Of a stretch of DNA of 64,000 nucleotides, positions 28,109 through 54,990 are shown piece by piece; within the stretch, counting starts at the first letter, position 1; each line of letters begins with the position of its first letter. The notes under the pieces were generated by a model. The model was not told the origin of the DNA. It was given only the letters and a program-made list of their open reading frames with translations, and did no database searches. The translations under genes and the position numbers were made by a program. Source of the DNA: Solemya velum (lineage: Eukaryota); assembly GCA_048127485.1 (NCBI GenBank), contig JBHNWI010000380.1:43563036-43627035 (forward strand), written 5' to 3'.

Positions 28109-28327
28109 GTACTTCGGGTAATGTCGTCCAAATACTGACAAATTGGTTTGAAGTTAAAGTTCGAGATCAGGGAGAAGTATATCAGTACCATGTTGATTAC
28201 TGCCCATCGGTGGATTCCAAGGAGGTCAGGGTTGGCATGTTATTGAAGCATGAGGCTATGCAAGGAAGAACGAATGCCTTTGATGGGATGACACTGTTCA
28301 CACCACAGAAGCTCTCTCAAGAAGTTG
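28109..28327 (+). CDS. PIWI: PIWI exon A (N domain): (G)TSGNVVQILTNWFEVKVRDQGEVYQYHVDYCPSVDSKEVRVGMLLKHEAMQGRTNAFDGMTLFTPQKLSQEV
   Basis: An AATTTTCAG acceptor and a G|GTATTA donor. The exon aligns to the Piwi N-terminal block (GTxGxxVxLxTNxFxL…YQYHVxY…AFDGxxLF). It enters in phase 1, so at least one upstream coding exon exists. Confidence 0.8.
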
Positions 28328-28409
28328 GTATTATTTTAATGTCTGTTAACAGTTAGCAAACTCACTGCAATTGAAAAGAGACTTCAAGTTCACAAACTCG
28401 TCTCAAGTG

Positions 28410-28700
28410 TGACCAGCACCATGGCCTAGCTGCTAGAATGCCCAATCTGTGACTGGGAGGTCAGGAGTACAAACACTGGCTGAGATAAACCAGAAGTCTA
28501 AAAATTGATATTTCTTGTGTCCATTGGCGGGCATCTGATATTAGGGTTAACACAAGGGCTGGTTAACCTGGTGTCTGTATATTGTGACTTTGGAGGATGT
28601 CATGTGGTATGTGATATGGCATTCTGGTGTGACAGCACCTTAAAGAGCAACATGAGTCTGCACTGTCTTGCACTGCAAGTTAATGAGTAGAATGTGTAGG
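28410..28700 (+). mobile_element. tRNA-derived SINE copy (same family as 15655-15905 and 51230-51520)
   Basis: The head is TGGCCTAGCTGCTAGAATGCCCAATCTGTGACTGGGAGGTCAGGAGTACAAAC. The body is homologous to the other copies. Confidence 0.45.
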
Positions 28701-31411
28701 TGTAATATTCATAAATATGAATACATTGAAAAAAATTATACTTGAATACAACTGTAGCTAAAGGAAAAGTCGAACCTAAGTTTTCACTGATTGAAATTAA
28801 CACATACATTTAAAGATGTAGGAATTATTTATGTTTGTCCGTTGATAGAGTTGTTCCAAATAATAGAACCAGGTACAATGGAAATTATATGGGAATCGCA
28901 TGATTGAGGTCGACACATTCATACAGGACAGCCTTGTATATTGACATTTGTTGGGACTCATCATACAGGACAGCCTTCTCATCACATTTCGTGGGTCTTA
29001 TCTAATAAGATCTAGCTATTTGTTACATTGTAGATAACAACTTTATCTTTCCAAAATATATGGACATTAAACAATGGTAATGTTAACAATGAACAATCAA
29101 GAGCAGCTCTACAACTACTTCTCCAATCAATCTTATATTTACTGTAACCTAAAGGCCTATCAAATCTGTTTTGTGATCATTCTATTCCTTATAAGAAAAG
29201 CCCTACTGATTAGCACGACAATGTGATGCATGGTGACCATCAGAATACAGTTCTAACAGAGTAAAAACTTCCATACCAAAATTACTGTCCTTCATAGCTG
29301 AATGATTGCTAAAAAGGGCTCCAATACACATACTACCAAATTGAACTATTGACGGTTCATGAAGATTAAAGTACTATATAGAATTGCATGTGTGGACATT
29401 AGTCTATTTTTCTAAAACATTTTTTGGAATTAAATCTAGCATTATATTTAGAAATATATAGCATGTACATGACGCATGATCATTTTCTGGTTTTCATTAA
29501 TGGTGCTCTGAACTAGAACAGTGGAAAATCAAAAGTCTCATTGACCCTGTTTTAGTAATATACTAGTAAACAAAACAATACAATACACATATTAGTACAG
29601 CAGATGTGCATTTCTATAATTAGAGAACTGGAGAACTGAAGAAAGGAAACTGACACACCTTACTCTCACTTTCATTCATCTCAGGCTCAGGTCTAGTATT
29701 AATTATAAAAATATAAAAAATAAAGGTATGTTTGTTTGAAAAGAAGTTTGCTGCTGTGCAATGTGTCCACTGATATCAACTGATGTAAGTGTTATCATTC
29801 ATAACTCTTGACAGACATCTCCATCATATAGTTCAACATATATATGTAATTGCAGGTTTTTGAAGGAAAAATTTTAAATAAAATTATTCTTTTTTGCATT
29901 TTATTTGTGTAAAGTTTCTTACTAATGCATACTGTTGGCTTATATTCAAAGTAAACTTGGCCTAGGTGCCAGTCATGTTAAGAACTCCATTCAAAATAGC
30001 ATGGCATGATTTTAAATTTTCATTGATTGAAAAATGCCACCGTTACAACCGTATATTATATAAACAATATGGCAACCGGTCAAAAGCAAATGACAAACAT
30101 GTATGTACATCAATAAAATTGTGAGAGAAGATCAAGTCTTATAAATATACCCATGGAATGTGCAGTTATATCGCTAAAGGGGTGCTAGCACATATGACTT
30201 CGGTACCTACAGGCATACACTGCGTTGAAGGGGCATCTTTTTGGGCAGTTTTGGCATAATATGATACAAACTGTAGCATCCTATAAATTCTACCTGGGTA
30301 TGGGGTAATTATTGTAAACTTGAGATTGTAAAATAATAGACAAATTGTGGTCACTTGGGCATGAAACTAGTAAATCCACAAAAGGTTTCAGTTTATGTCC
30401 AGTTGCCCCCAAAATGAAGATGAGGTGAGCTGATTTGTTTTAGAGTCTTGTTTTGCACAATTACAACTATATAAGCCCCTGTCATTGTGAGTAGCAGGGT
30501 GAAGAAACCACTTAAAAGTAGATTGAAAGAATCTAAGACCATCTATGGCCATCGACGTCTTTCTCACAGGCAAGTCCAGGAAGACTCCACCGTTGAAACA
30601 AACTTTGCTTGCAGCAAACTTTGCCAACAACATGGCTGGAACCAACAATGCTGAAATATGAGAGGCACCAAGACTAGACACTGAACTGACAGTGCCTTAT
30701 CCACTTGGCCATGGAAGCACTTCCAAAACGAAGAAAAGTAGTTGTCACACATGCATAATTTACCCACTACCCTGGTATAGTCTTTGTTAAGAAACTATAG
30801 TCTGTATCATATTATAAAATAAGGTTTCCCCCAAGTGCCTCTTTAAACCAGTTAAACCAGTTTCAGTTGATACCCATGCATTTAACAATATAATGAATGT
30901 GAACAATCATATCTTTTATTAGGTCTCCAATTCAGATACCAGAACAAGGAAATGTTAAATTATATTACACATCATTGCCATTGTTAGAAGACAAACCAAA
31001 TATTGTAACAAACTGATTTTAAAATATGAATTTTATCTTATCCATTCTGTAATTATTCCAGGTCTTTATAAGTTATAATGGCTCTCTATTGAGTGAGAGT
31101 GATCAAACTAACATTTTATTATTCATATGTCTGCAAGTAAGGTGATTCGATAACTCACCCAGTCAGGAATGTTTAGGTTTATGTGAAAAGATACCAATGA
31201 AAATAGCCACCCCTTGTGAACATATTTTTCATATCTGATGATATAGCATTTATTCATTGCTTATGCTTGTTATTCTTTTGCAATAACTAAGAAAACAAAT
31301 TAAAAAAATTAGCAAATTGGCATAGCTTTGATTGATCAAATGGGCTTTGGCATGAAAATGTTTAAATATGTTGAAAATAATTAAAAATATAAGCATTTTT
31401 ATAGGTTACAG

Positions 31412-31529
31412 AACTGGTTTGCGAGAGGAACACCGATGGTGCAAGGATACAAATTACTGTCAATCTGGTTGCACAGATAATGCCCAATGATCCCCTGTGT
31501 ATTAGAGTTTGGGGGATAATTTTCAAGCG
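31412..31529 (+). CDS. PIWI: PIWI exon B: ELVCERNTDGARIQITVNLVAQIMPNDPLCIRVWGIIFK
   Basis: A TTACAG acceptor and a GCG|GTGAGA donor, phase 1 in and 2 out. The peptide matches the Piwi N-domain block (…ITVxLxxELPxxSPxCxQxxNIIFRR). Confidence 0.8.
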
Positions 31530-33169
31530 GTGAGATTCATGTTTTTGTGTTTCCTGATTGTTATTAAACCATCACTCCTCAAGCACTGACCAGACTTCAT
31601 AATGTTTCTGGAAACAAAATATATTCTATTATTATTATAGGTTAAAAAACATAAAAAAATTAAGTGTTTTAATTTCTAAGTACTAATATACATTAAAATT
31701 CGTTAGTCTTAAAAAAGATTGAACTATAACCAGTATGGTTTGCAGAGTCACCATCGATTCCAAGTCTATTAGTATTAATAGGTCAGAACTATAGCCTAGC
31801 GGAGAGAGCAGTAGTCTTGAAAATTGCATGCATTTGCACTATAATAGTCACAACAAACCTAAGTTGTAAAAAATTCCTTTCTTGCAGTTACCTGTGAATT
31901 CTTTTTGCCACCTGATTGTCTGACTGGCTGAAGCTCTCTGTTTAATATATATAACTATTACTATGGGAAATTGAGACTTCAGTTGCACATTTCAATGAGA
32001 TGATGCTATAGAGGTCAGTATTGTCTCTGCACTCTCACAAACAGATACCATCTCAATATGATCCAAGTCTATGCAGTGATCCAAGAGACATCAAACCACA
32101 GTACAGCACATCAAAATCTGATTGTTTTGTAGATTTTGCAAGAATCAAGTTGTTACGAGAATCCAGAGAATTTTCTAGGACGATGTAAAAAAGTTTCTTT
32201 ATCTAGGGACATGTGATTTACGAAGCAGGTTCACATGTTATAAAGTAGGTACATGCTACCAAGTTTCAAGCAGTATGGACATAGCCATGTCAGCATGCAT
32301 GTCCTTGCAGTATAAACACAGGGTGATAATTTCCTGTTGGTTAATACAAATTCAATCGCTCAGCACACATCATGGAAGTGACCTACTCCATCATCACCAG
32401 TTACTGTTGCTGATTGTAGAGATACAGAACAGCTAATATATGTAATTGTGACATGAACTTTCTCCAAATCACAAATAAGTTTAATCATTTTCATGTACAT
32501 GTATTTCCATATCTATATTAATATCTATGAAATAACATAGACCTTGTGATATTCATATTCGACCTAGACCTAGTATTTAAGTCATTTCAACACAAGTTTG
32601 TTACTGAAAGATGTTGATCTACCTCTTGGTGATTCCTATCGAAACAGTATATCTGTATGCATCACAATGGAATATATATATTGATATCAATGTCCATCCT
32701 CCCAGTGGTAATGCACCACATTTTCCTGTTAAAAAGGTCCCATTAAAACAAGCATGTTACTGTTGGATCCCAATCAATGTTCAGTTTCTAGCCAAAACAA
32801 TTACTCTGATGAATTCCTGCATGTGAAAAGAAGTTGGTTTAGTGCCAGCCATTGAAAATATACAAACTGGGTGTTATCAGTGAAAGAAATGGGCTGTCAT
32901 TGTCATGGCGTAGTGTAGACATTTGAACATTCAAAAGATTGTAGAATATCACAGAAAAATCACATTGTGTGGGGGTTGCATGTTGTTACGGGATGTCTTA
33001 TCACCAACAGTATTGTAGAGAAAATCGCACCATGGGGCAGTCTTCTGAACTAATTGCTTGGTTAAGTGTTTTAAGAATTTGGGCATTGGCCAATGAGAAC
33101 TTCCAACTCTGTCAGTATTTGGATCTGACATTATAAAGTCAATACTATTTCATACTTGGTAGTATTATT

Positions 33170-34500
33170 ATACCCCACGAAACGAAGTTTCGAAGGGTAT
33201 AATGTTTTTGACGCTTCCGTCCGTCCGTCCGTCAGTCCTGTTTTTGTCAGTGCATTTCCTCTGAAACTACTGAACAGAATTTCCGGAAACTGGTAAGAAC
33301 ACAGTATGCCATTGTACATATTAACGGAAAATTTTGATCCCCTGAATTGGGATTCCCTGAATTTTGTGGGAGTTATGCCCCTTTGAACTCAGTTCACTGA
33401 AATACACTACTGGAGCAACATGTCCTCTCAAAATACTGAATAGAATTTCAGGAAACTTAGTATGTAGTAAGGACAATATGTAGTTAGGGCCCTACCACTT
33501 AGTGGCAACCACTCTATAGTGATCAGTCTGTCTGTATGTCCATCCATCCATCTAACAAATCATGTCCAGGCTGTAACTTTTTTGTTCTTTCATATAAGTT
33601 TTTGATATTTGGCATGTAGGTAGATCACATCTAAACGATGTTGCATTGCTGATTCGTGACCTTTGACCTTGAACTTTGACCTCAAGGTCAAATCATCGCC
33701 TTTTTAATGGAACAATCCATGTTCCAGCTGTGTTTTAATATTTAGGTTCTTGATATTTTGCATGTGAGTGTTGGAATGCCCTATAGTGACCAGTTTGTCT
33801 GTCTGTGCATCTGTTCGTTCGTCCTTGAATAGTGTCCGAGCTGTAACTTTTTTGTCCTCTGCGATAAGCTTTTGATATTTGACATGTAGGTAGACCACCG
33901 AAGACGATGTGTCGCGTTCCATAGTTTGTGATCTTTGACCTTGTACTTTGACCTCAAGATCAAATTATTGCTCATTTATGTGTTCGGGCTGTAACTTCTT
34001 TGTCCTTTGACACAAGCTTTTGATTTTTGGCATGTAGGTAGATCACATCAAGACGATGTGTCACGCTTCATGGTTTTTAGGCTTTGACTTTGAACTTTGA
34101 CTTCAAGGTCAAATTATTGCTTATTTAATGGAACAAATTGTGTCCCGGCTGTGTTTTGTTGTTTAGATTCTTGATACTTTGCATGTGAGTGATGGACCGC
34201 TCTATAGTGATCAGTCTGTCTGTCTGTGCATCCGTCTGTCCGTTTTTAGCGAATCGTGCCCGGACTGTAACTTTTTTGTCATTTGCTATAAGCTTTTGAT
34301 ATTTAATGTAGGTAGACCACCTCAAGACGATGTGTCGGGTTCGTAACCTTCGACCTTGAACTTTGATCTCAAGGTCAAGTAGTTGTCTATTTAATGAAAC
34401 AATTCATGTCACGGCTGTGTTTTAATGTTTAGATTCTTGATATTTTGCATGTGAGTGATGGAAGCCACATAGTGACATCTGTGTGGGTATGTCAATCACA
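33170..34500. repeat. Complex satellite-like tandem array (~135/270-bp unit variants, ~5 copies) containing repeated TGACCTCAAGGTCA palindromes
   Basis: Recurring blocks …GGCTGTAACTTTTTTGT…AAGCTTTTGATATTTGGCATGTAGGTAGATCACATC…GACCTTGAACTTTGACCTCAAGGTCAAAT…TTGCATGTGAGTG…CTATAGTGATCAGTCTGTCTGT lie at ~33570, 33840, 33975 and 34263. Confidence 0.8.
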
Positions 34501-34906
34501 TTTCAGCCAGGCTTGATTGATGGGGAGTGTGTCAAAGAAACAACCCAACCAGAGAGAAAAAAAACAACTTAACTGGAGAGAAAAATACAGCCCAAGTTGG
34601 CTTTATTGTTTTTTATTTTGCATTATCAATTGATGACAATCTCCAATCTTAAACCTGCTCCTCCATCAATGTGGGGGCGTGGGGTATGTGAGCGTGCTCA
34701 CTTAGTTCTTTAATTTTTTATGTGAATCTACTAGGATTTTCACAGATGCAAATACAGGAGAACTTCTGTCCAAATGGATTCTCTTGATTCTACTTGAAAT
34801 TCAGACCCATAGTATATTAATATAATTTTGAATTGCATAGTTTTTACATAATCCAATAATAGTTGACTAAATGAACTGGAAACTAACAAAATGAATCTGT
34901 TTGTAG

Positions 34907-34957
34907 GATTTTGCAGAAAATAAATGTGAATGAAACCATTGATGTTCCTAAACATGG
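34907..34957 (+). CDS. PIWI: PIWI exon C (micro-exon): RILQKINVNETIDVPKH
   Basis: A TTGTAG acceptor and a GG|GTAAGT donor. Entering and leaving in phase 2 keeps the frame. It corresponds to the Piwi …RRLLKxxxLxQIGRNYYNPxxPIDIPxH segment, but similarity is weak. Confidence 0.6.
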
Positions 34958-36089
34958 GTAAGTTTGTTGAGCATATAGATTTTGTTGAGTATTGATATAT
35001 TCATTTTCTGTTTTACTATTTTATAGTTAGTGTAATAATGCTACCCAGTAGTAAGGAGAAGCCCAGTATTAGCACTTGAAAAAGGCGTCTGTGTAGCCGA
35101 ATCATCGTGCGTATAAACACATCTTTGATTTATAATAGTGTCTTGAAGGCAGTTTTATCATGTTGATTGTATCAGTAGTAAGAAAATTATTTAGTGATCA
35201 TTCCGAACTCTAAAGCAACAACTGAAAAAATATGTTATAATAAATATTCTATATTTTCATAATCTAAAAACACAATTGGGGTTGCATTGATTGTGGTTTC
35301 GAGGCCTCTCCCCACACATCTATGACAACAGAGTCATAATCTTACCTCAACTGAAGTCTAATTTATCATGGGCAGATTAAGCATGTTTAGAGGAAATCAG
35401 GGCACTCGCCCTAGTTTTGGAGTCAACCTGTTTAGCTCAGTCAGGAGTAATGGTAGTGTTGCAATGTTGATTTCAACTGTATCTTATGGGTTCTATTTTA
35501 CTATTCGAAATTTCAAATTGCAACTTTTTCATCTGTAGAAATCTAGCACTTCGGTTCTGTTGATTCCTCAAGACTCTCTACATATTTCGATGCCCTGGGG
35601 TGAGAATTGGGGTTAAATGCTGGGCGTTAGGATATCAATGAAGGTTTAATTGGGGGCAATACACTTTAAAACCACTAAACTCAATCAAGATTGATTTACA
35701 GCAGACTTGTCCAACAAGTTATGTTTGGTTAAGTATGGGTATCTATGATGGCGGGAATAGATTGAGTGATCTTGATCATTTTAGCAGCACTCTAGTTTGA
35801 CCTGTAAAGAACCAATTTGGAGGTGGGGCTTCCAAAATGAGGATTCAGGATCATGCAGAAGGTGGCCTAATATATAAGGTTTTTGTCATATGGTTTCTGT
35901 TCCCATACTTTCCATGTTTATTTTTAGCCCAACTGAAACAAATAATCTGTTTTCTCTTATTTTGTTTGTCATTGTACTGACTTGGCCAAAATAACATGCA
36001 TGGTATTATACAAGCCTATAAAACAAACCAATTCCAACATTCCTATATAAAGCCTCTCTCATCTTCATATAGAGCCTCTCATCGGGCAG

Positions 36090-36340
36090 TTCACATCTGT
36101 GCGGGGTCCTCTGTGGCCGAGGGAATAAGTTGCTGCTCTCAGCGTCTAATTCTGGTGCTTCTCACATCTCAGTGTTCCGGGTTCGAGCCCCATTGGTGGC
36201 AAATTTTGTTTCAACAGCAGAGTCGTCCTGGGCTTGCTTGTGAGAAAGTTGTTTGTGGCTTGTGGATGGTTGCGGGTTCTTCCCGGCTACTTCTAGACAG
36301 TTTCTTCTCCTTGCTACTTGCACCGACATAGCCATAATTA
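36090..36340 (+). mobile_element. tRNA-derived SINE (GGGGTCCTCTGTGGCCGAGGG…TTCCGGGTTCGAGCCCCATTGGTGGCA)
   Basis: A- and B-box-like segments are followed by a unique body. It lies within a PIWI intron. Confidence 0.5.
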
Positions 36341-36591
36341 TGCTGAACAAGCCTCTAAAACAAATCATCTCCCTCACTCATCTCAACTAATCAGGACTAT
36401 TTCAAGAGTTTGTCATGAATTTTTTGCACATTCATCAATCCTGGTATAAAATCAGTCTTTTCTTTAAATCCAATGAAATATTTAGTAATTGAACTTATTT
36501 TAATTCAAGAAAAAACATTTTGTACTTGGGTTATGAAATTTTGTAGGTCACGAATTTAACTAACCAAAATATAATGGGTTTTTTTTTGCAG

Positions 36592-36786
36592 GTTGCAGGT
36601 GTTGCCCAGCTTTGTGACATCCTTGTTGCTATCAGAAACTCTTCTGTTGAATGTGGATTTGTGCCACAGAATAATCTCAACGAAATCGGTTTTGGACATC
36701 ATGTACCAAATTTATGAGGAACAGAAATTGGATCAGTTTCATGACAAATGTCTGCAAGAACTAATTGGGACCATCATCATAACAAG
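36592..36786 (+). CDS. PIWI: PIWI exon D: GLQVLPSFVTSLLLSETLLLNVDLCHRIISTKSVLDIMYQIYEEQKLDQFHDKCLQELIGTIIIT
   Basis: A TTTTTTTTGCAG acceptor and an ACAAG|GTATGA donor. It matches the Piwi linker-1 region (WPGFxTSILQYExxIMLCxDVSHKVLRxETVLDFM…ELIGLVVLTKY). Confidence 0.85.
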
Positions 36787-37959
36787 GTATGAATGAAAGG
36801 AGGAAAATAGATTTTCAGTGAAGGAAAAATACTATAAGGGATTCATATTGAATTTTAATCTTAATACCTGTCTATCTAGTTTTGGCCCTACACTTTTTCT
36901 CGTGTTCAAAGTGGGCATAGTTGGAGACATAAAAAAGGCTTTCTTCAGATGGCTTGTACAAGGTCCAAAACATTCAATATTTCTCCAAACGATAACTGCT
37001 CTTCCACTGGGAAAAGTAGACTTTCAGAAACAAGCATACAAGATCAAGCTCTTCGAATAAGAAAGCAAATTGTGAAAGGTTACATGTTCGATTTATTTAG
37101 AATTTTGATGTTTTCTTGCAAATTTCTCTGTACTACAAAAAGAGATATTTATATAATTATATTAAGCTGCATGTTTTATTGCAGATTCTGATTTGATTTG
37201 TTTGGACATTCTTTCATTAGTCATTTCGGCAATTTTGTTTTGAGGTTGAAGCCTTTAACCAGAAAGAATTTACACCAATTTCGAGTCAGCTTTCAAAAGT
37301 ATGAGAGATACCAGGTAGGCTATGGAGGTTTTGATGTGATTGCTGCAATCACTGTACATATTAGCTGTAATTGTTTATAGTGCCTCCTGTGTTGCTTCAG
37401 TCGATATTGATGGAATGTTGTCTGTCTGTTTGTAATGAACATAAAGATTCTAAATTGCCACATATCCCATTTGGCTGCTGCTGATTGGTTGAAATTTCAG
37501 TAATGTCTGATTGCGTTCAGTTATGGTATATAGGTGTATTGGAGACTGCAGATCCAACCAGGGCATTCCCAATATATAATCTGCCGTTTCTTAAATCCAA
37601 TGGAATATTTAGTAATTGAATTTATTTTAATTCCAGAAGAAACATTTTGTACCTAATTGCTCTGGTTGGTTGAATTTCCAATGTTGTATAATGTTGTCCA
37701 AGGTTCCTAATTGATCAAGATTTTTTTTCAACTTTTTTCTATCTTTCCTGTTACAATGTGACAAGAGAGATTCTTCTAGAAAATGAGCAATGGCTGCATT
37801 GTAAATACAATTTTTATTCCAGCTACCATAAGAGTGGAACATGAAAGTAGGCAATATGAGCATTTTGGAGCTTTTTTTTAGTACATGTAGTAACTTTTTG
37901 GTACACTCAATAAATACAGCAATTGTAAAAATGTTGAGCTTTCTTGCAAGTAAATGCAA

Positions 37960-38350
37960 ATCCTGGGAATATGAGCATTTAGAGGTTTCCTTTTTATGAG
38001 CATTCAGAGCACTCCTGCATGGCCAACCCATGAAAGTGAAAATGGACAATTAAGCTTTTCCTGCCAGTACATGTATTAAATATGGCAAATGTAAGAACAT
38101 GGAGCATTCCATAACAATGCAAGTACACACAAATGCGAGCTTTATGAGTTTTTCTGCAAATACATGCAAATCCAGGAAATATGAGCATTTTGGGCTTTCC
38201 TTTTGTGAGCATTTGGAGCTCTCCTCCCAGTATATGTAGTGAATCTACCAAATGTGAGCATTTAGAGCTTTTCTTTTTGTAAACATTCAGAGCTCTCCTG
38301 CATGGCCAACTTATGAAAGTGAAAATAGATAATTTTAAGCTCTCCTGTCA
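37960..38350. repeat. Tandem duplication of a ~190-bp unit
   Basis: …GCAAATCCTGGGAATATGAGCATTTAGAGGTTTCCTTTTTATGAGCATTCAGAGCACTCCTGCATGGCCAAC… is repeated with ~90% identity. Confidence 0.6.
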
Positions 38351-38509
38351 GTACATATAGTAAAACAGCAAAAACATTGTGTTCTATGCCATGCAGTGCA
38401 ATGGGGTGTTTCCTTGTTGCACTGGTGTTATAGTATGTTTGCCCGTGTCATGAACGATGTTTGCTATTGGCTAATGGTGGTACCAGTGTCGAGTGTGCCT
38501 ACTATTGGC

Positions 38510-38690
38510 AGCACTCCAGACTAGTCTTTGTTCACACTGTCCAGATGGATTGGCCGTCCTTGACACTGTCCAGATAGTGGGATCCTTTGTTGACACTGTC
38601 CGGGAACCGGGAGCTTCTGTTGACACTGTCTTGAAGGTGAGAGTTTTTGTTGACACAGTCTGGATTGCAGGACGTTCTATAGACTAGTAT
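38510..38690. repeat. 30-bp minisatellite (GACACTGTCCAGATAGTGGGATCCTTTGTT-like, ~5 units)
   Basis: Direct reading. Confidence 0.7.
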
Positions 38691-40379: not shown

Positions 40380-40700
40380 CAGTGCTTGGTGGATTTCTGC
40401 TTCATCAAGCAATGACGCATTCTCTGCATCTGGATTATTCTGCAGTTTTCACTTTATACTTCGGTGGCAGAACTGTTAGGCTAATTGGCCATCAGATTGT
40501 ACCCACTTCATGCATCGCCAGACTTTATTTCCACCAATTCTCAATTGTCAGTCGGCTTGCAATGATTAGACCTAAGTGCTTTGAACAACTACTTCTAGGT
40601 GGAACTTCAATTTAGAACAACCTAGCTCCATAATTCATAGTCTTCGACTCGGCAAATACCAGGAAGCCTATTCCCCCATTTGGTCCACCGTTGAAGGTGG
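40380..40700. repeat. Interspersed repeat copy (same family as 50890-51130)
   Basis: GTACCCACTTCATGCATCGCCAGACTTTATTTCC…GACCTAAGTGCTTTGAACAACTACTTCTAGGTGGAAC corresponds to GTACCCACTCCGTGCATCGCTGACTTTTATTTTC…GACCTCAGTGCTTTGAACTGCTACATCTAGGTGAAAT. Confidence 0.5.
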
Positions 40701-41568: not shown

Positions 41569-41680
41569 GTACAACGGCAGGACTTATCGTATTGATGACA
41601 TCAATTGGGAGGCTCACCCCACAGACAAATTCCAGTTGAATGATGGCACAGAAACCACTTTTATTGCCTATTACAAGAGG
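41569..41680 (+). CDS. PIWI: PIWI exon E (PAZ): [38 protein letters not shown]
   Basis: An ACCAACAG acceptor and an AGAGG|GTAATT donor. It is a near-canonical PAZ block (YNNKTYRVDDIDWxxxPxxTFxxxDGSExSFxEYYxKQ). Confidence 0.9.
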
Positions 41681-42307: not shown

Positions 42308-42346
<39 letters not shown>

Positions 42347-43964: not shown

Positions 43965-44088
43965 CACCATAAAATGGAAATTGGCAATGACAAACAGCCA
44001 ATGCTGGTGAGTCTTCCAAAGAAGAAAGACATCAGACGGGGACAGACTCTACCTATAATGCTTGTTCCTGAGCTATGTTACACAACAG
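43965..44088 (+). CDS. PIWI: PIWI exon F (PAZ C-terminal part): HHKMEIGNDKQPMLVSLPKKKDIRRGQTLPIMLVPELCYTT
   Basis: A TCTTCACAG acceptor and an ACAG|GTACAG donor. It matches QPVLVSxPKRR…LIPELCYLTGL. Confidence 0.9.
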
Positions 44089-46036: not shown

Positions 46037-46154
46037 GACTGTCACCTGGAGTGAGAGCAGACTTCAGGATAATGCGAGACCTACAGACACATACCCGCCT
46101 TGGACCAGTGGATCGAGTCGCAACCTTACAAAGGTTCCACCAGAGCTTCAGCAG
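46037..46154 (+). CDS. PIWI: PIWI exon G: GLSPGVRADFRIMRDLQTHTRLGPVDRVATLQRFHQSFS
   Basis: A TTTCACAG acceptor and a CAG|GTAATT donor. It matches [27 protein letters not shown]. Confidence 0.85.
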
Positions 46155-46829
46155 GTAATTCAAAGTCCTTTGTTGATTATACAAGCAAGCATCATGAATA
46201 ATTGGGGTTTTCATTATTACTTCAACATTGCTACATTGCATGCAGGCATATATTACATTCAACTTCTTACATATGTTACATATGAACATACTTTGAATAA
46301 TGTATTACACTTTGATTTTACCAAATCATAGGCAATGCTTTATGTAAAGGATAAATTGAATTCAGTATAAAAGTACAGCAAATGCTTCAATTAAATACAT
46401 ACAGTATGTGGGTTGAGATGTTCGACCGAACGAATGAACGAACGAATGAAAGAACGTTATTATCTAGTGATAGTGCCAACCAACCAACTAACCAACCACG
46501 AATGGATAAACAAAGCAACAGACGGACAAAAGAATTAACGAACTTTATTATCTAGTGATAGTGACAGATGGAGTGGGTACAGTAAATCACTGCTCAAATG
46601 TTATTCAAGAAATTTGGCATCATGTATAGTCCTGTTCACTAGTGTATATCGGCTACACTATCACACTAAAAAAAAATTTTTTTATATCATATGTATATCT
46701 GTATCATAATTATGAGAATTGTTTTTTTTTCATAAGATTAAAGAAATGGGCATGTCAGAAGTATAATAAACTTGTCAGCTAATTGAACCACGCAAACATT
46801 TTTAGCTTTTGATTTTTATTTGTTTTTAG

Positions 46830-46944
46830 GCCTGATATATGTGAGATCATGAACTTATGGGGTTTGGAATTAGGTCCTGAATTGCTGACTGTAGAAGGGA
46901 GAGTCCTACCCAGAGAAATAGTTTTCACTTCAAACAAACAACAG
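46830..46944 (+). CDS. PIWI: PIWI exon H: RPDICEIMNLWGLELGPELLTVEGRVLPREIVFTSNKQQ
   Basis: A TGTTTTTAG acceptor and a CAG|GTATGC donor. It matches …ELxxWGLxFxxxLLxxxGRILxxExI. Confidence 0.85.
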
Positions 46945-48833
46945 GTATGCCAGGAAAAAGGGACAAGTGTTCTGACTACTCCACTAAAAATTTAAATGGA
47001 ATTCCCACTGGGATCCCAACCAAAATCTCGATGGGATTTCACCGGAATGAAAATGAATCCCAACCAAAATTCACAACTACCAATCTCTTGTAGTAAAAAT
47101 TGTAACACTTTCTATAATGAGAATACTGAAACCATTTTAAAATATTAAGATTCAATTGTTTCAATGAGCAAACCTTTGAAGGAAGCCAATCGAGAATACA
47201 TATTTCTTGCTTTTAAAAATGAATTCAGCAGGGCTCCAGAAAAGTGGAGTATTTGAGTATTTTGAGTATGATCCTCTTTTTATTAATGAAATGTTCAGAA
47301 ATTGATGATGATAAACTGCAATGAAAGATCGAGGCCTTTTAATACTTTATAGGGACCTAGGCTATAGATAATGTAGTAATAGGCTAATATCACAGACGAC
47401 TTCCAAACAAGTGAACTGTTGATTCGGATGAGTGGTATCTGTAGCTCATTTGTTTGGCAGAAGAGTGTACTCATATTGTAAAGTTTTTCAAGACCCCTGG
47501 TCATCCCCAATATGCTGGGTTTGGTTACAGCTGTAACCTTTCTTAGATGATACTGGAGTCTGGAGTTAGTTAGCAAGTTTTATGAAATATGAGGCCTAAT
47601 GTCAATGACAATCTTTGGGAGGGGGAGACCTGATCAATTTTCAAAAAACTTGGTCTGAGGAACAGAATACCAACTTTGTATGTCCTTATGTATTTTATGG
47701 TGAGAGTTTGATATCAACACTAAAATCCGAGAAGGTACTCTATTGCGCTGCTTAAATGGAATATCTTTATGCCAAAAAATTTCTGGCACTGTAGTATGTA
47801 TAGTTTACTCATGCCTTTGAAATTTGACAAATAATTTTACTCATCACCCTGTAAAGAACCGCGAAGTTAATACACATAGAATTTCAAAATAATGAGTAAA
47901 ATACTCCTCAATCTAAAAAATTATCTGGGGCCTTGAATTCAGAAAGATGGCTCCCTATTAAACAAAAACATCCCCCTTCCTCATGATTGATACAAAATAT
48001 ATTGTATTATGCATTTTATGTTGATTAGTTCATTTCTGTCTGATAAACTTCTCAAACTTTCCAAATTAAAACATGTAAAATGTAGATCCACTATGTAAGT
48101 TACAAAATTTAATAATATGAATAATCTAAAAAGAAAATATTAAAGGTTCACTATAAGCCGTCAGCTCTGCTGTCTGATTCTTTGCTATATCTGTATTTCA
48201 AAAGGGTTATTAGGTCAAATTTCTTTAAAAAAATTTAACAAATAGGTTATGATGAAGGTGATAATGCTTGGAAATGTACTCCCAAGACAACCATGACAAC
48301 GATACACTTGCAACATCTTCACATGACACATACACACAACAGCTATAAAAGTACAGGGTTCTTGCTGAGATGTCACCTGTCACTATAGCTAGAATGTTCG
48401 AATAAGTGTTACCAAGCATTATAACAAGACTTGCGGAGACATTACCAACGTGAAGGAACAACACATGACCTTTCCAGATCCGGCAGACTGCCTGTGACCT
48501 CCAGAGCTCAGGATTGCTACATCCAGTTACATTATCTATGAGAAAGGGTGACGACAGCATTCTCTACGGCATCCATCATCCCGGATTTGTGCAGGATATT
48601 GGCACAGACTTTCCAGAACCATTTTGGGAAGTAGGACTACGTGCTAGATTGACAATTTACATCCAATTTATCTTTCAACAACCTTTTCAAAAAATAAACT
48701 CTTGATTTGTTGCTAAATATTTCCATTTGTTGAACCTTCTAGTACATATGTAGTTATTGTTTAGATCATAGTTGAAAACTATTTGACATGTCTAAAGTGT
48801 TTACTGGTAGAACTGCTCTTGCTCTGGTTTCAG

Positions 48834-49018
48834 TTGTCTGTGAGTGCTGACCAAGAATGGGTTAGATCATCTTCAAGGTCGGTGCTGCTGCAACCTCTGT
48901 CGTTGTACAAGTGGCTGGTCATTTCCAGCAAAACCAACGCCTCCAACTCACACAACCTCATCTCCCTGTTACAGAGGGTCTGTCCACCTTTGGGTATCCA
49001 GATAGGTCTACCATTAAT
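48834..49018 (+). CDS. PIWI: PIWI exon J (MID): LSVSADQEWVRSSSRSVLLQPLSLYKWLVISSKTNASNSHNLISLLQRVCPPLGIQIGLPL
   Basis: A CTGGTTTCAG acceptor and an AAT|GTGAGT donor, phase 0 in and 2 out. It matches …ADWSKxIRxxxLLxxxxLxxWLxIxxxRxxxxAxxFxxxLxxVxxxMGxxV. Confidence 0.8.
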
Positions 49019-49210
49019 GTGAGTTGACATTTTTGAAAGGTATATCAATTCTAGCTTGTTGTCTCAGTACTCAATCTATATGAAAGTACTCATTAAATAA
49101 AGCTGTCATCAAATTCTGTTTATTTCCAACCTGTTGAATGTGCCACCCTTTTCCCCAATAGGTTTCTTACTTTATTCTGTAATATGGAAATACAGCTGTT
49201 TCCATCTCTA

Positions 49211-49462
49211 TTACCGTAAAATCTCGATTACTAGTCGCGTCTCGAATAGTAGTCGCACCCCGACTTTGGAGTGGTTTGAGTGAAAATTCCCCCGTACTTT
49301 CAAATCTGGAAATGGCTCAATTACAAGTCGCATCAGATTTTCAATGAACCCGACCTCAAATTTCTCAGAAATTGTCTTATTTATTTGATAGCGTCAATTA
49401 TTGGAATTGTAACTCTTAATCTCGAACACTAGACGCGACTAGTAATCGAGATTTTACGGTAA
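49211..49462. mobile_element. MITE (~250 bp) with 33-bp perfect TIRs (TTACCGTAAAATCTCGATTACTAGTCGCGTCTC)
   Basis: The inverted termini are read directly, and the internal region has no ORF. Confidence 0.6.
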
Positions 49463-50889
49463 TTAGACTTCAGACCTCCAGATATGTTTTTGGCATATTT
49501 CAACATAAGCATGGTATTGATGGCTCTTGATATATTTCAATGAAAACATAATAGGAATGTTCATGTGTAAGGAGATAAGCCTACTTTATCACTGTGTTGG
49601 TATCGTTTTTGTTGCAAGTTTCACTTCTTTTCATTTTATCCTAAATATATTCACAAATAGATCCTAATACATCTGTGGTCAGTATGCTCAGATATCTGAA
49701 GAATAATATTCATACAAGATGATGTAGACAGATATAACTTTCCTTTCCTTTCATTCTTACAAAACCACATGGGGTGATAAATTCATGGATTAGTTTGTAA
49801 TATTGACAATCATTAATTGGCACCAGATTTGGCTTTGTATCATAAAATGTATTGTGATATCAAATCCTCTCTCAGTAGGGTCTAGAACATTATTGAAACT
49901 TTATTTGTAACTTGTGGTGCAATTGACTACCATTGTCTTATAATATGACTGCCTATAATACCCAGTAGTGTACTTGTGTGTACCTTCTAAAAGTTTCACC
50001 ATGTTGATTGTCACCTCTCGACAGGATATCATATTATTATAACTACATGTGCCCAATACAATTGTAAAATTAAATTAGACCATCATTAATCTATATACAA
50101 GCTGTCAATTTGTAATATACAAAACTCGTAACAATAGTCAGCTTCAATGTTCTATAGGCCTACATTATGATAATAGAAGCAGTTACTTAATTTAATTTCT
50201 CTACTTGATGACCGTAAAGCTTTCTATGTGTTTTACTACAGATTAGTATTATGTGGCAATATACTCTACCACCAGGAGTTCAAGGATATATTTAATAGTG
50301 AAAATGTCCAATAAGAAGAGTATTTAATGTTGACATTTTATCGGAGGATATTTAATGATGAAAATGTCAAATAAGAAGAGTATTTAGTTGACATTTTATC
50401 AGAGGAATAAGTAAACCAAATTATTCAAACTAGGGAAACGTTTCAAAATAATATAGTCCTTATAAATATAGCATTTTAAAATTGTATTTCGCCTCAAAGA
50501 AAAAAATAATATTTCACATCGAAACTGAAGATATAAGCAGAAAAAGACGAATCTAAAGTATATTTGTATTTTTATACTTTTTACAAGAATCTTGTAAAAA
50601 AATCAAGACATTTACAGAGATTGTGAACCTGCCTGCAAGGTTGATAACTCTGTATGAGAGATTGGTGCAAGTCCCCTGGAGCTACCATGTGCCTACAGAC
50701 TCCATTCTATTTTTGATGCCTGTGAATGAGGTCACATAAATTTTGCTCCCGGGAGCTTCCAGTTCCTCTCTGCAATGTTCTGTGAATTTTGGATAACCTC
50801 TACTGTTTCATTGACATTGGGGTCATTATAGTGATTTCTTCAATGTTTTTCAATGACTTCAGTCTGACGTTTTCACAGAATTTCGAATG

Positions 50890-51130
50890 TGTTTTTTTTA
50901 CTAGAAATGTCATTTTTTCCTGTTAATGCATATTTACCACCACTGCAGTGGGCTAAGGTTCATCCTTTTGCTTTACACTCTGCAGTCTCATTGTTTGCCT
51001 ATTTGACGTTCAGGTTGTACCCACTCCGTGCATCGCTGACTTTTATTTTCGCATATTCTACGTTGTCTTGACCTACAGGGTTGGGTTCAGTGACAGACCT
51101 CAGTGCTTTGAACTGCTACATCTAGGTGAA
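50890..51130. repeat. Second copy of the interspersed repeat seen at 40380-40700
   Basis: See the 40380-40700 entry. Confidence 0.5.
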
Positions 51131-51229
51131 ATGTTTTCCTTAGGAATCACCCTGCTCCCTCATTCACCCTCTTCGACACGGCATATTTCAAGAGGGGGAT
51201 GCCCAACTTTGGTAGTCTGTTGCTTCTGG

Positions 51230-51520
51230 TTGCCTTTTGGTTACCGTCTTCTCCATGGCACATTGAGAGCTACCAGCACTGTGGCCTCGTGGATGAGGCT
51301 CCCGCTTGGCAACTAAGAGGTTGAGAGGGGTTCCACTTTAGCTGATGTTTCTAGTTAGTATTCCTTGTGGCTGCTTGTTGGGCACCCAATATTAGGTTCA
51401 CACAAGATCTAGTTAACCTGGGGGTCAGTATGTGACTGAGGCTAATGTCCTGTAGTACAGAATATGACATTTTGATGTTACACTCTGTCACCCGCAGCCA
51501 CGTTACATTCCCGTCACACA
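51230..51520 (+). mobile_element. tRNA-derived SINE copy
   Basis: The head is GTGGCCTCGTGGATGAGGCTCCCGCTTGGCAACTAAGAGGTTGAGAGGGGTTCCA. The body is homologous to 28520-28680 and to the reverse complement of 15655-15800. Confidence 0.4.
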
Positions 51521-52818
51521 CTTCCTGCTCAGTTGTGCTTTCTCTTGTTATGCAGATATACTATACTGTTGTGTAAATATACATGGTCAAACCTGTGTTA
51601 GTGACCCACTGTTTTCAATGACTCCCTGTCGTTAGTGACCCTTTTCATTCCTCCCGATTGAAAATACTATATAAAGCACCTTATTTCAGCACCAACCTGG
51701 GTTATGTGACTAACAACTGCATTTTTAGTTCTTGAAATAGCACTTTTACCTGATTTCTAACCGGAAGACAACCACAGTCCAGTTATTTTGTGCAAAAACA
51801 AAAATTCACAACCTGACAATGATCCTTCAAGTTATGGGAGTTGTTTTTCTGAATTCACCATTTTTTATGTTGTTTTTTTTTAAAAAAATTCTCAAATACC
51901 AATATGGTTAGATTGCTATAGCAGGGGCTTATCTTGCTCTTTTAGCACAGCTGTTTCTATAGTTTTAGTCTCCTTGTCTTTTCTGGATAACCACTCCTTC
52001 AGTTCTGTTCAAATTTTATCAAATCATCATGGTCAACAATGCACATAGAAAGGGAATTGTCCCCAGACCACCAATGGTTTGACCACGGTATAGGAATTCC
52101 CACCTATTTAAAAAAAATTTGCAATTGCCTAACTCTGTCTGTGATCCCTCACTAATGTTTTTAAAAAAATACACAATCACTTAGCATACAAATGGTAATT
52201 GTCACCCAAATCAGCCATAGTTAGGCCAGGGCTGGGGAACCCCTGCACAATTTTTCTAACTAAAAATATTTTTTTACCCTACCTCAAGTCCCTCAACATA
52301 TCGTCTTTTTTACATTCCTTCCAACAAATGATTGTTGACTTCAGTCCTGGGTGAGGGATGGGGATGAGAAATACTGGGCATCTGCCAGTAGGGATTTAAT
52401 AAGAGCTCAATTGGCAGATTGCTGGCAGTTGACAGTCTCCATGGGAATTTTTTAATAGACTTGTCTGAATAGTTATGTTTGGTAATATAATCCTATATAT
52501 GGCTTTTATTTAATTTGGCTACTGGTATGACTGGGGGTATTGATTGAGGGATCTTGATCACTTTTGCAGAGCTCTAATTGTGTCTGTTTCGAAAGTCTTG
52601 TTTACTTACATTAATAGCAAGGAAAATGTCAAGCTTCAGATTCTCACTTGATTTACATGCATCAGTCAGTCCAAAAAAGGCACTACTAATTCATTTAATT
52701 CACAATCATAATTTTAGAGTATTTACTGAATTAAGAATTTCTATGTTTCTTGTTCAATCTTATAATTTGGAGATCTTGAATTTAGTATTACCAATCCTTT
52801 TTAATATACTCTGTGTAG

Positions 52819-52970
52819 GTGCGCACTCCCGTCAGATAGAAATGAGTGTTACATGAAAGCGATGAAAGAGGAAGTGAATTCAGCTACACAGATAGTCATT
52901 TGTGTTGTCCCCACACACAGAAAAAACTTATATGATCTCATCAAGAAGTTCTGCTGTGTGGAACGCCCAG
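52819..52970 (+). CDS. PIWI: PIWI exon K (MID/PIWI junction): MCALPSDRNECYMKAMKEEVNSATQIVICVVPTHRKNLYDLIKKFCCVERP
   Basis: A CTGTGTAG acceptor. The only in-frame solution that joins to exon L uses a GC donor (CCCAG|GCAAGT). It matches …[27 protein letters not shown]. Confidence 0.8.
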
Positions 52971-53805
52971 GCAAGTTCATAGAACTGAGATATAACATTA
53001 CTGTAAACTTTCTGTGGTATGGTTCAAATTTCAGAACCAGTTCAGCAAAAGAACAGCAATACACAATCATGATACAATGTTCAATCATGTCGGCTTCTTT
53101 CAGCCATTCTCGACTTATGTATGTAGCCCCAAAACATACTTGAACCATGAATGTAAATCCTCTTATGATTATTGTTATTGATTTATTTGCAAAGTTACTT
53201 ACAGTGCTGATTATTTTCTAAACAAGATTAAAACATTGTTATGACATCATACCATGTTTCTATGATTGCAATATAGTTAAAATGGACTTTTGCTCTACCA
53301 ATCTAGTCCAACAGTCAACACTACACAGTCCATTATATTGGACTGTGGACGAGATGCCGTAGGGACTGGCGAAAGTTGACAATATGGGTTGAGTAAAAAA
53401 ACACGTCAATCCTAAATACATGAATCAACAGATTGAACAGCCATTGATGATACAAATGTCAAATGATGAGAAACATGTCACTATTTATATAGTCTGCTTA
53501 TCATGGCAAAAAAATAATGAGCTGAAGGGAAAATGAATACTGAAACTGCTATCTTCTGTTAAGCATGTAGCTTGGATTGGCAGTAGGTGTTCTTGATTTT
53601 ACTTGTACATCTAATTCCTTCTTTTGTGCAATAGGGTTGTTTGTCCTGCAATAAAGTACTGTAACAATTATAGACTGGAAAGTAGAAGATTACAGAATCT
53701 GATCTATTTATAGCATGCCACTGATCTGATGCAATGTGACACACATTCTTCATGTCAGACCATCTGAATTTTTTTCTTACAATGTTTACCTTTCTTCGTT
53801 TTCAG

Positions 53806-53927
53806 TTCCGTCTCAGGTGATAGTGGGGCATACTATCTCTAAACTCAATTCACTGTCTGTAGCCACAAAAGTTGCAATTCAAATCAACTGCAAGCTGGGT
53901 GGAGAAGTATGGTGTTTAAATATCCCA
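53806..53927 (+). CDS. PIWI: PIWI exon L (PIWI domain start): VPSQVIVGHTISKLNSLSVATKVAIQINCKLGGEVWCLNIP
   Basis: A CGTTTTCAG acceptor and a CCCA|GTATGT donor. It matches the highly conserved [41 protein letters not shown]. Confidence 0.9.
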
Positions 53928-54815
53928 GTATGTCTTTTTTAATTTCAATTATCTTAAAATCACGTGTGTGTATTGATTACAAGGACCTGAATCATTCAAA
54001 CTGCCAGTGGGATGATATAACACAAGAGTGGGCTTCAACTCACCAAGATAATTCTACTCTATTTTGCTAATATGATGATGTAAGAGCATTTGTATAATTG
54101 ATGTATATGAATACAAAAAGAGTGCAGTAGTTGTATGGAATTATTGTGTTTAATTGCCTGTCCTGTAGTTTGTTATCATATTTGATAAAGAAGACCTTCA
54201 CCAACCATGGTTTGATCGTCACTGAGAAATAACCATGATACAACCATGGTTTAGAGAAATACAAGAAAATCTAACCAGCACATTTGTTTCAATTCACATA
54301 ACTTATGATACAATTAAAATAATTCATGAACTATACAACAATGAGTTGAATACATGAGGCTGTGTTGTCAATGTTTTGATACAGTATTAAACGAAATACC
54401 CAGCTATTGGGAGATGGTAGTTTCATGTCCATGATTTTTTAGCAATGTGAATAAGTATTCTAACACTTGTGGCCATTTTGACTACCAGAGACTTCCCATA
54501 TTCAATGCTTAGCAAAAGATTCATCATTGGCACTGTCATGTTATATTATGCCTATGTGTTGCAGATACTAATATGTCATGTTTTGATTATTTGTAATGTT
54601 TATCCATTCAGTGACAAATGTTAAGTTCACAATATCTGAACTTTATTTAATTTCTAACCAGATCCCTCTGTGGTTTTTAACACCTGCAGCAGAATTTATA
54701 TACATGTACAATGTATACTACTCCAACTTTTAAAACAGTGTGTTTGCATTAGATATGATACATGTATATTATTGAACATTGTAGATATCAAGAAATCTTG
54801 TCTCATTTAATTTAG

Positions 54816-54990
54816 TTGAGTGGATTAATGGTGATAGGTGTGGACACATACCATGATGCCTCAAAGAAAAGTTGTTCTGTAGTTGGGGTTGTTGCAAGCA
54901 TCAATGGCAATATGACCAGGTATTACTCCAGAGTGTTTTTTCAACAGTGCCACCAAGAAATAGCTGATGCTCTCTGTGTTCCTATTGTGG
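54816..54990 (+). CDS. PIWI: PIWI exon M: LSGLMVIGVDTYHDASKKSCSVVGVVASINGNMTRYYSRVFFQQCHQEIADALCVPIV(G)
   Basis: An AATTTAG acceptor and a probable G|GTGTGT donor. It matches LMxVGIDVxHDxxxxxxSxxGFVASxNxxxTRWFSRxxxQxxxQEIxDxL and contains the first catalytic Asp (GVDTYHD). No downstream exons could be located in the window. Confidence 0.8.

What the first reader, a model, noticed from the sequence alone, without database searches (positions are those of the whole stretch)
28109..54990. PIWI-clade Argonaute gene spread over >27 kb, heavily TE-invaded and truncated at both ends in the window
Thirteen exons with perfectly consistent intron phases reconstruct a ~560-aa contiguous N–L1–PAZ–L2–MID–PIWI(start) sequence with hallmark motifs. 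The gene that silences transposons hosts several of them in its introns and 5' region: a PLE, a GIY-YIG element, SINEs, a Tc1 fossil and MITEs. Downstream, a gypsy fragment and a LINE sit where the rest of the PIWI domain (RDGVGDGQ…, the catalytic D/H and the C-terminus) should be. That part may lie beyond 64 kb, or the gene may be disrupted.
Basis: partly seen in the sequence, partly recalled or inferred. Interest (0 to 1): 0.6.

Follow-up and report, generated by a model that had tools for sequence, protein, structure and literature searches.

The report
Clam Piwi gene, cut by window
This is a real, apparently intact Piwi (transposon-silencing Argonaute) gene of the clam Solemya velum. It only looks truncated because its last exons lie beyond the 64-kb window, so it is an ordinary though unusually divergent member of a well-known family.

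Summary
Between 28109 and 54990 on the + strand, 12 exons (not 13) with consistent phases give an uninterrupted 562-aa N–L1–PAZ–L2–MID–PIWI(start) sequence. Pfam matches Piwi_N, PAZ, and Piwi positions 1-128 of 302.

The sequence is 100% identical to residues 90-651 of GenBank KAL5017639.1, an 830-aa "hypothetical protein" of Solemya velum. That protein's last 179 residues complete the PIWI domain but are not encoded in the window. The gene therefore continues past 64 kb, across an intron of more than 9 kb that holds a gypsy fragment and a LINE. It is not disrupted.

The MID 5'-phosphate pocket and the DEDH slicer tetrad are intact.
- The public model's first 89 residues come from a Penelope-like retroelement (RT + GIY-YIG) just upstream, which is probably an annotation chimera. 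The true 5' exons were not found.
- The protein is a long-branch Piwil1: about 50% identical to other mollusc Piwil1, which are 60-83% identical to each other. It also uniquely lacks 10 aa in L1 (the QIGRNYYNP motif).

TE-filled introns are expected in a solemyid genome. Interest is low.

The parts
28109..28323 (+). Piwi exon A (N domain; enters in phase 1, so at least one coding exon must lie upstream)
   Evidence: acceptor ttttcag|GT, donor GAA|gttggt
31405..31529 (+). Piwi exon B (N domain/L1)
34907..34957 (+). Piwi exon C (L1; 51 nt; site of the 10-aa deletion relative to all other Piwi proteins)
36592..36786 (+). Piwi exon D (L1/PAZ start)
41569..41680 (+). Piwi exon E (PAZ)
43965..44088 (+). 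Piwi exon F (PAZ end, …LVPELCYTTG)
46037..46154 (+). Piwi exon G (L2)
46830..46944 (+). Piwi exon H (L2)
48834..49018 (+). Piwi exon I (MID, N-terminal part)
52819..52970 (+). Piwi exon J (MID, Y and K of the 5'-phosphate pocket; followed by a GC-AG intron, donor CAG|GCAAGT)
   Evidence: the nearest GT donor breaks the frame
53806..53927 (+). Piwi exon K (MID/PIWI junction, PSQ…AIQINCKLGGE)
54816..54990 (+). Piwi exon L (start of the PIWI domain; catalytic Asp codon 54843-54845 and Glu codon 54957-54959; last Piwi exon in the window)
54991..64000 (+). Intron after exon L, longer than 9 kb and running off the window; the last 179 aa of the protein are encoded beyond 64000
25584..25851 (+). First coding exon of the public model KAL5017639.1, lying inside the reverse-transcriptase ORF of a Penelope-like element; probably an annotation chimera
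23973..27847 (.). Penelope-like retroelement as an inverted dimer (arms 23973-25501 and 26326-27847, 98.5-99% identical) encoding RT followed by GIY-YIG, ending 261 bp before exon A
57278..58271 (-). Ty3/gypsy-type RT + RNase H fragment, antisense, in the last intron
   Evidence: RVT_1 8e-16, RT_RNaseH 3.2e-28
59031..64000 (+). Decayed non-LTR (LINE) element with Cys-rich ORF1, AP-endonuclease and RT, sense orientation, running to the window end
   Evidence: Exo_endo_phos 1.3e-5, RVT_1 1.4e-15
49210..49463 (.). MITE-like 254-bp unit with perfect 33-nt terminal inverted repeats in intron 9
33508..34476 (.). Tandem array of units of about 270 bp (76-82% alike) in intron 2

Best explanation
The interval holds 12 consecutive coding exons of the Piwil1-clade Piwi gene of the protobranch clam Solemya velum (GenBank protein KAL5017639.1). 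The gene is intact. Its remaining exons, encoding 179 aa of the PIWI domain, lie beyond the window across an intron of more than 9 kb that has taken up a gypsy fragment and a LINE.

By inference from the family, the encoded protein anchors the 5' phosphate of a piRNA in the MID pocket and the 2'-O-methylated 3' end in PAZ. It then cleaves complementary transposon transcripts with its DEDH RNase-H-like centre.

Transposon fragments in and around the gene are passive cargo of a repeat-rich genome. The Penelope-derived 'first exon' of the public model is most likely a gene-prediction artefact, and the genuine 5' exon(s) are unidentified.
For: Shown:
- 12 exons with canonical splice signals and consistent phases give a 562-aa open frame.
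- Pfam matches Piwi_N, PAZ and Piwi.
- The model is 100% identical over 100% of its length to P0061 = KAL5017639.1 of Solemya velum.
- P0061 residues 90-651 map onto the 12 exons, residues 1-89 onto 25584-25851, and residues 652-830 onto nothing in the window.
- The PIWI part of P0061 (residues 90-830) aligns end to end with solved PIWIL1 (9s0z) at E=2.4e-215 and 720 bits, against 134 bits for AGO2.
- The MID Y/K/Q/Q/K residues and the DEDH tetrad are all present in alignment with 14 other Piwi proteins.
- A neighbour-joining tree puts it with Piwil1, not Piwil2.
- No stop or frameshift occurs in 1.69 kb of coding sequence spread over 27 kb, despite about 50% amino-acid divergence. This argues for purifying selection.
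- The upstream element matches RVT_1 (2.1e-8) followed by GIY-YIG (1.1e-5), and the RT match covers residues of the annotated N-terminus. That N-terminus aligns with no Piwi N-terminus.

Inferred: piRNA binding, slicing, and expression.
Against: - There are no transcript data, so exon use, the 5' end and expression are untested.
- The DNA beyond 64 kb could not be fetched. The intact 3' end therefore rests on the public protein model alone.
- The protein is unusually divergent: 50-52% identical to mollusc Piwil1, which are 60-83% identical to each other.
- It lacks the otherwise universal L1 motif QIGRNYYNP.
- It has changes at near-invariant positions (KDRYDAIKK to KNLYDLIKK, GVGDGQ to GVSNGQ), so altered or reduced function is possible.
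- The conserved segment that precedes exon A in other animals (…RTRPAHITDKRG) was not found upstream.
Confidence: 0.85

Rival explanations
1. The gene is a truncated or disrupted copy (pseudogene) whose PIWI catalytic half was lost when the gypsy and LINE elements inserted.
For: No PIWI C-terminal exon lies in the 9 kb after exon L. That stretch holds a gypsy RT/RNase H fragment and a LINE.
Against: The public protein from the same locus is identical over all 562 aa and continues with a well-conserved 179-aa PIWI C-terminus, 70% identical to Mya Piwil1. Exon L ends at a good donor (GTGG|gtgtgt) in the phase needed for the next residue, Gly. The frame is open across 12 exons, and the catalytic and RNA-binding residues are kept.
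Confidence: 0.03
2. It is a fast-evolving lineage-specific Piwil1 duplicate (a 'Piwil1b'), sub- or neo-functionalised, and a canonical Piwil1 exists elsewhere in the S. velum genome but is unannotated.
For: - It shows long-branch behaviour, and divergence is concentrated in N/L1 and L2/MID: 41-45% identity against 53-61% among peers.
- It has a unique L1 deletion.
- Piwil1 duplications with weakly expressed copies are documented in molluscs (PMC6128900).
- With Mya Piwil1 as query it ranks below sponge and vertebrate Piwil1.
Against: No second S. velum Piwi protein appears in either search of a collection that does hold S. velum proteins. A recent duplicate should have been the top hit, but the next best is 46% identical.
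Confidence: 0.3
3. The Penelope-derived first exon is real: a sense-oriented retroelement supplies the promoter and/or start codon of the Piwi transcript, giving an RT-fragment–Piwi fusion.
For: The element is in the same orientation as the gene. Its ORF has an ATG at 25584 and a GT donor at 25851/25852 in exactly the phase that exon A needs. No alternative 5' exon was found in 28 kb.
Against: The 89 residues are the RT finger/palm motifs of a transposon and align with no Piwi N-terminus. Gene predictors commonly borrow TE ORFs when the true first exon is divergent. The donor TTG|gtatca is mediocre. The near-identical inverted arms (98.5-99%) point to a young insertion, which is unlikely to have replaced an essential 5' end.
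Confidence: 0.1

Closest known systems
Piwil1 (MIWI/HIWI-type) PIWI-clade Argonautes; nearest solved structure PDB 9s0z 'Piwi-like protein 1', then sponge EfPiwi (7kx7), MILI (7yfy) and Siwi (5guh)
   Same: Same N–L1–PAZ–L2–MID–PIWI order. End-to-end alignment at E=2.4e-215. MID 5'-phosphate pocket residues and DEDH tetrad are conserved. The C-terminal …[12 protein letters not shown]…L ending is conserved.
   Different: 10 aa shorter in L1 (no QIGRNYYNP). WPG/MPG is replaced by LPS. There are substitutions at near-invariant MID and PIWI positions. The N-terminal Arg/Gly-rich region is not identified.
Molluscan Piwil1 genes (e.g. Mya arenaria, Crassostrea, Mizuhopecten, Patella; Jehn et al. 2018, PMC6128900)
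   Same: These are the best database relatives and fall in the same clade in a neighbour-joining tree. Lineage-specific variation in the Piwil1 clade is already described.
   Different: Only 50-52% identical, where those proteins are 60-83% identical to each other. It ranks below sponge, cnidarian and vertebrate Piwil1 when a bivalve Piwil1 is the query.
Penelope-like retroelements (RT with C-terminal GIY-YIG endonuclease)
   Same: The element at 23973-27847 has RVT_1 followed by GIY-YIG on one strand and forms an inverted partial dimer. From my own knowledge, not checked here, such dimers are a frequent insertion form of these elements.
   Different: It is frameshifted and 5'-truncated. It is not part of the Piwi protein, except in the public gene model.

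Membership tests
PIWI-clade Argonaute | PAZ domain | tested here: met
   Pfam PF02170, E=1.9e-33, profile 1-122 of 123
PIWI-clade Argonaute | Piwi-type N-terminal domain | tested here: met
   Pfam PF23278 Piwi_N, E=2.6e-18
PIWI-clade Argonaute | Complete PIWI (RNase H-like) domain | tested here: met
   In the window only profile positions 1-128 of 302 are present. The rest is in the public protein KAL5017639.1 from the same locus, which aligns to the last residue of PIWIL1 9s0z. The DNA for that part was not seen.
PIWI-clade Argonaute | DEDH catalytic tetrad | tested here: met
   D (GVDTYHD) and E (HQEI) are in exon L. D (FRDG) and H (QYAHK) are in the part outside the window. All are aligned with 14 Piwi proteins. 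Which residues form the tetrad is taken from established knowledge of PIWI structures.
PIWI-clade Argonaute | MID-domain 5'-phosphate pocket (Y, K, Q, Q, K) | tested here: met
   NLYDLIKK, PSQV and AIQINCK are conserved in the alignment
PIWI-clade Argonaute | Closer to PIWI than to AGO clade | tested here: met
   phmmer against PDB: PIWIL1 720 bits and Siwi 573 bits, against AGO2 134 bits
PIWI-clade Argonaute | N-terminal Arg-Gly/Arg-Ala motifs for Tudor-protein binding | tested here: inconclusive
   No RG/RA-rich exon and no match to Piwi N-termini in 28 kb upstream. The true 5' exons are unknown.
PIWI-clade Argonaute | Binds piRNAs and is expressed in germline or soma | not testable with these tools
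   No RNA data available
Canonical Piwil1 orthologue group of lophotrochozoans | Sequence conservation typical of the group (60% identity or more among molluscs and annelids) and the L1 motif QIGRNYYNP | tested here: not met
   50-52% identity; 10-aa L1 deletion with no hidden micro-exon. It still groups with Piwil1 rather than Piwil2, so I file it as a divergent Piwil1-clade member, not as a typical orthologue.
Penelope-like element | Reverse transcriptase followed by a C-terminal GIY-YIG endonuclease on one strand | tested here: met
   A conceptual translation of 25.4-27.2 kb matches RVT_1 at E=2.1e-8 and GIY-YIG at E=1.1e-5, both above Pfam cut-offs
Ty3/gypsy LTR retrotransposon | RT–RNase H (and integrase, LTRs) | tested here: inconclusive
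   RVT_1 plus RT_RNaseH/RT_RNaseH_2 are present on the - strand. No integrase or LTRs were identified, so it is a fragment.
Non-LTR (LINE) retrotransposon | AP-type endonuclease followed by RT on one strand | tested here: met
   Exo_endo_phos at 60327-60671 and RVT_1 at 61732-62184, both on the + strand

The most novel reading that the evidence does not exclude
A young, sense-oriented Penelope-like retroelement really does provide the promoter and first coding exon of what may be the clam's only Piwil1 gene. Expression of the transposon-silencing protein would then be wired to a transposon. This would go with fast evolution of the protein and loss of the otherwise universal L1 motif.
Probability: 0.07. 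Interest if true: 0.55.

Novelty: new member of a known kind. Interest (0 to 1): 0.15.

Why it matters
It matters little for biology at large. Piwi genes are universal in animals, and long TE-laden introns are normal in a large, repeat-rich mollusc genome.

Practical value:
- The public 'hypothetical protein' KAL5017639.1 can be named a Piwil1-clade Argonaute.
- Its annotated N-terminus should be flagged as transposon-derived.
- The protein is an unusually divergent Piwil1 from an early-branching bivalve. That could interest people who study the arms-race evolution of the piRNA pathway, if confirmed with transcripts and a second solemyid genome.

Tried and rejected
- **13th micro-exon for the missing L1 motif.** Regex, BLOSUM scoring and a profile HMM over introns 2-3 gave only chance hits. 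The recurring 'HVGRSH' matches belong to a tandem repeat.
- **True N-terminal exons.** I tried an RG/RA-density scan, tblastn with over 100 Piwi N-termini, inspection of all stop-free + strand segments, and a profile of the conserved pre-exon segment. Nothing was credible.
- **PIWI C-terminal exons in 55-64 kb.** Searches with a PIWIL1 probe, 60 database fragments, low-threshold tblastn and the exact public protein found none.
- **DNA beyond the window.** The look-up of encoding contigs has no record for P0061.
- **Whole-frame Pfam scan of intron 4.** The tool refuses translations with stops. The ten longest stop-free segments from introns and flanks gave no TE domain.
- **Tc1 fossil.** A Sleeping Beauty probe recalled from memory gave only a 26-aa trace at E=3.6.
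- **tRNA-derived SINE heads or other RNA genes.** None found by ARAGORN or Rfam.
- **Second S. velum Piwil1.** None appeared among the top hits of two searches.
- **Paper on the S. velum annotation method.** Not found in the library. Only a citation was found (science.ads0215, via PMC13066446).
Full report
**1. Checking the observation**

The window is AT-rich (33-47% G+C). Its ORF list already showed Piwi-like peptides near 53.8 and 54.8 kb. They cover PIWIL1 residues about 105-677, with E-values down to 1.5e-16, and nothing matched residues 678-861. Sixty Piwi fragments from the protein collection gave the same series and nothing credible in 55-64 kb on either strand.

Reading the junctions base by base gives 12 exons:
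- 28109-28323, 31405-31529, 34907-34957, 36592-36786
- 41569-41680, 43965-44088, 46037-46154, 46830-46944
- 48834-49018, 52819-52970, 53806-53927, 54816-54990

All acceptors are AG behind pyrimidine tracts. Eleven donors are GT. The donor of exon 10 is GC in the textbook GC-AG context CAG|GCAAGT, and the only nearby GT donor breaks the frame. Phases match throughout, and the conceptual product is 562 aa without a stop. Introns 1-11 total 25.2 kb against 1.69 kb of coding sequence.

Pfam finds Piwi_N (2.6e-18), PAZ (1.9e-33) and Piwi (2.3e-25), the last covering only profile positions 1-128 of 302. The exon count is 12, not 13.

**2. What it is**

The 562-aa model is 100% identical over 100% of its length to P0061. 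P0061 is an 830-aa 'hypothetical protein ScPMuIL_007228' of the protobranch clam Solemya velum, GenBank KAL5017639.1, on a 151-Mb sequence. Mapping P0061 back onto the window gives three parts:
- Residues 90-651 are my 12 exons.
- Residues 1-89 map to 25584-25851.
- Residues 652-830 map nowhere in the window.

Those last 179 residues are a complete and well-conserved PIWI C-terminus (…DRIIVFRDGVSNGQL…RPEWYDFYLVSQ…[23 protein letters not shown]…LFYL). They are 70% identical to Mya Piwil1. Residues 90-830 align from first to last residue with solved PIWIL1 (9s0z) at E=2.4e-215. Sponge EfPiwi, MILI, Siwi and Drosophila Piwi follow, and AGO2 scores only 134 bits.

Exon 12 ends at GTGG|gtgtgt in the phase that yields the next residue, Gly. 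The simplest reading is that the gene continues beyond 64 kb. Intron 12 is then longer than 9 kb and contains two elements:
- an antisense gypsy-type RT/RNase H fragment at 57278-58271;
- a decayed sense LINE with endonuclease at 60327-60671 and RT at 61732-62184, running to the window end.

I could not fetch the downstream DNA, so this step rests on the public model.

**3. State of the gene**

I aligned the protein with 14 Piwi proteins, from sponge to human.
- The MID 5'-phosphate pocket residues are all present (Y and K in NLYDLIKK, Q in PSQV, Q and K in AIQINCK).
- The DEDH tetrad is present (D in GVDTYHD, E in HQEI, D in FRDG, H in QYAHK). Which residues form the tetrad is taken from established structural knowledge of PIWI proteins.
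- A neighbour-joining tree rooted on Piwil2 places the protein in the Piwil1 clade, on a long branch.

It is 50-52% identical to mollusc, annelid and cnidarian Piwil1, which are 60-83% identical among themselves. The excess divergence sits in N/L1 and L2/MID: 41-45% identity against 53-61% among peers. The C-terminal PIWI part is nearly normal.

It alone lacks 10 residues in L1, the QIGRNYYNP motif present in every other sequence examined. Regex, matrix and profile searches of introns 2-3 found no hidden micro-exon, and the public model agrees with mine.

With Mya Piwil1 as query, no S. velum protein is among the 120 best hits, although sponge, cnidarian and vertebrate Piwil1 are. With the S. 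velum protein as query, the next best hit is only 46% identical. So no more canonical S. velum Piwil1 is annotated in that collection.

An open frame over 12 exons at this divergence argues for purifying selection and a working gene. Whether it is the sole, fast-evolving Piwil1 or a divergent duplicate cannot be settled here. Piwil1-clade duplications with weakly expressed copies are known in molluscs (PMC6128900).

**4. The 5' end**

Exon A enters in phase 1, so coding sequence must lie upstream. The public model supplies it from 25584-25851. That stretch is inside a transposon ORF.
- The region 23973-27847 is an inverted dimer, with arms 23973-25501 and 26326-27847 at 98.5-99% identity.
- A conceptual translation of its + strand matches RVT_1 (2.1e-8) followed by GIY-YIG (1.1e-5). 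This is the Penelope-like architecture.
- The RT match covers part of the annotated N-terminus.
- Those 89 residues align with no Piwi N-terminus, whereas other animals share …RTRPAHITDKRG just before the exon-A junction.

I judge this a gene-prediction chimera. The ATG, the GT donor (TTG|gtatca) and the phase do fit, so a real TE-initiated transcript is not excluded.

Searches for a genuine N-terminal exon all failed: RG/RA density, over 100 Piwi N-termini, all stop-free segments, and a profile of the conserved segment. The 5' exon(s) may be too divergent to recognise or may lie before the window. 'Truncated at the 5' end by the window' is therefore possible but unproven.

**5. Transposon content**

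Confirmed:
- the Penelope-like element, which lies upstream and not in a mapped intron;
- the gypsy fragment and the LINE in the last intron;
- MITE-like units such as 49210-49463, with perfect 33-nt inverted ends;
- a tandem array of units of about 270 bp in intron 2;
- five families of 190-260-bp interspersed repeats shared between introns 1, 3, 4 and 9 and the upstream region.

At least 3.1 of the 26.9 kb has a second copy inside the same window.

Weak or unverified:
- The 'Tc1 fossil' is a 26-aa trace at E=3.6.
- The SINE claim lacks support from tRNA or Rfam matches.
- The 'GIY-YIG element' at 22683-23940 matches Pfam only at E=0.0095, below the cut-off.
- The ten longest stop-free segments from introns and flanks carry no Pfam TE domain.

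The only other sequenced solemyid genome is 4.27 Gb and 50% TE (PMC13066446). TE-laden introns are the expectation there, not a peculiarity of Piwi.

**6. Verdict**

The finding is real and its main interpretation is right. It is an ordinary Piwi gene, already present in GenBank under an uninformative name and cut by the window edge, not by transposons.

Three modest points of interest remain:
- the probable transposon-derived N-terminus in the public model;
- the GC-AG intron;
- the unusually divergent sequence with a unique L1 deletion.

Interest is 0.15. I classify it as a new member of a known kind.

Noticed in passing
window 22683-23940: A unit of about 1.26 kb with imperfect terminal inverted repeats of about 300 nt (85%; a 133-nt core at 96%). 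It encloses a single 165-170-aa ORF (22974-23486) with a Cys-rich motif and a weak GIY-YIG match (Pfam E=0.0095, below the cut-off). It sits about 30 bp from the left arm of the Penelope-like dimer. It could be an independent GIY-YIG-only element or part of a composite insertion.
   Followed up: partly
window 25584-25851: GenBank model KAL5017639.1 starts at an ATG inside the Penelope-like RT ORF and splices to the first Piwi exon at 28109, so its first 89 residues are transposon sequence.
   Followed up: yes
window 52970/52971: Intron 10 of the Piwi gene uses a GC-AG splice pair (CAG|GCAAGT). The nearest GT donor would shift the frame into a stop.
   Followed up: yes
window 1-572: The window opens inside + strand open frames. 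Positions 249-569 encode a Ser/Asp/Glu-rich peptide containing two 120-nt tandem copies (288-527, 95% identical). This may be an exon of a neighbouring gene cut by the window start.
   Followed up: no
window 13487-14107: + strand stop-free segments with LINE-like RT motifs seen by eye (…YRLIPILP…, …AFDLVDHQVLLYKLG…, …FADETT…). Pfam gave no hit for the first piece at E<=0.1.
   Followed up: partly
window 33508-34476: Tandem array of units of about 270 bp (76-82% alike) in intron 2. Its translated 'HVGRSH' motif mimics the missing Piwi 'IGRNYY' motif but belongs to the repeat.
   Followed up: yes
window 15653-15897 / 28421-28666, 11732-11976 / 50418-50664, 3563-3756 / 51383-51581, 30421-30608 / 36199-36376, 40474-40657 / 50992-51186: Five families of 190-260-bp interspersed repeats (70-78% identity, mostly in inverted orientation) are shared between Piwi introns and the upstream region. 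None has a tRNA-like head by ARAGORN or Rfam.
   Followed up: partly
window 55436-55785: A 350-bp unit with 63-nt terminal inverted repeats (84%) just after the last Piwi exon in the window. It is MITE-like.
   Followed up: no
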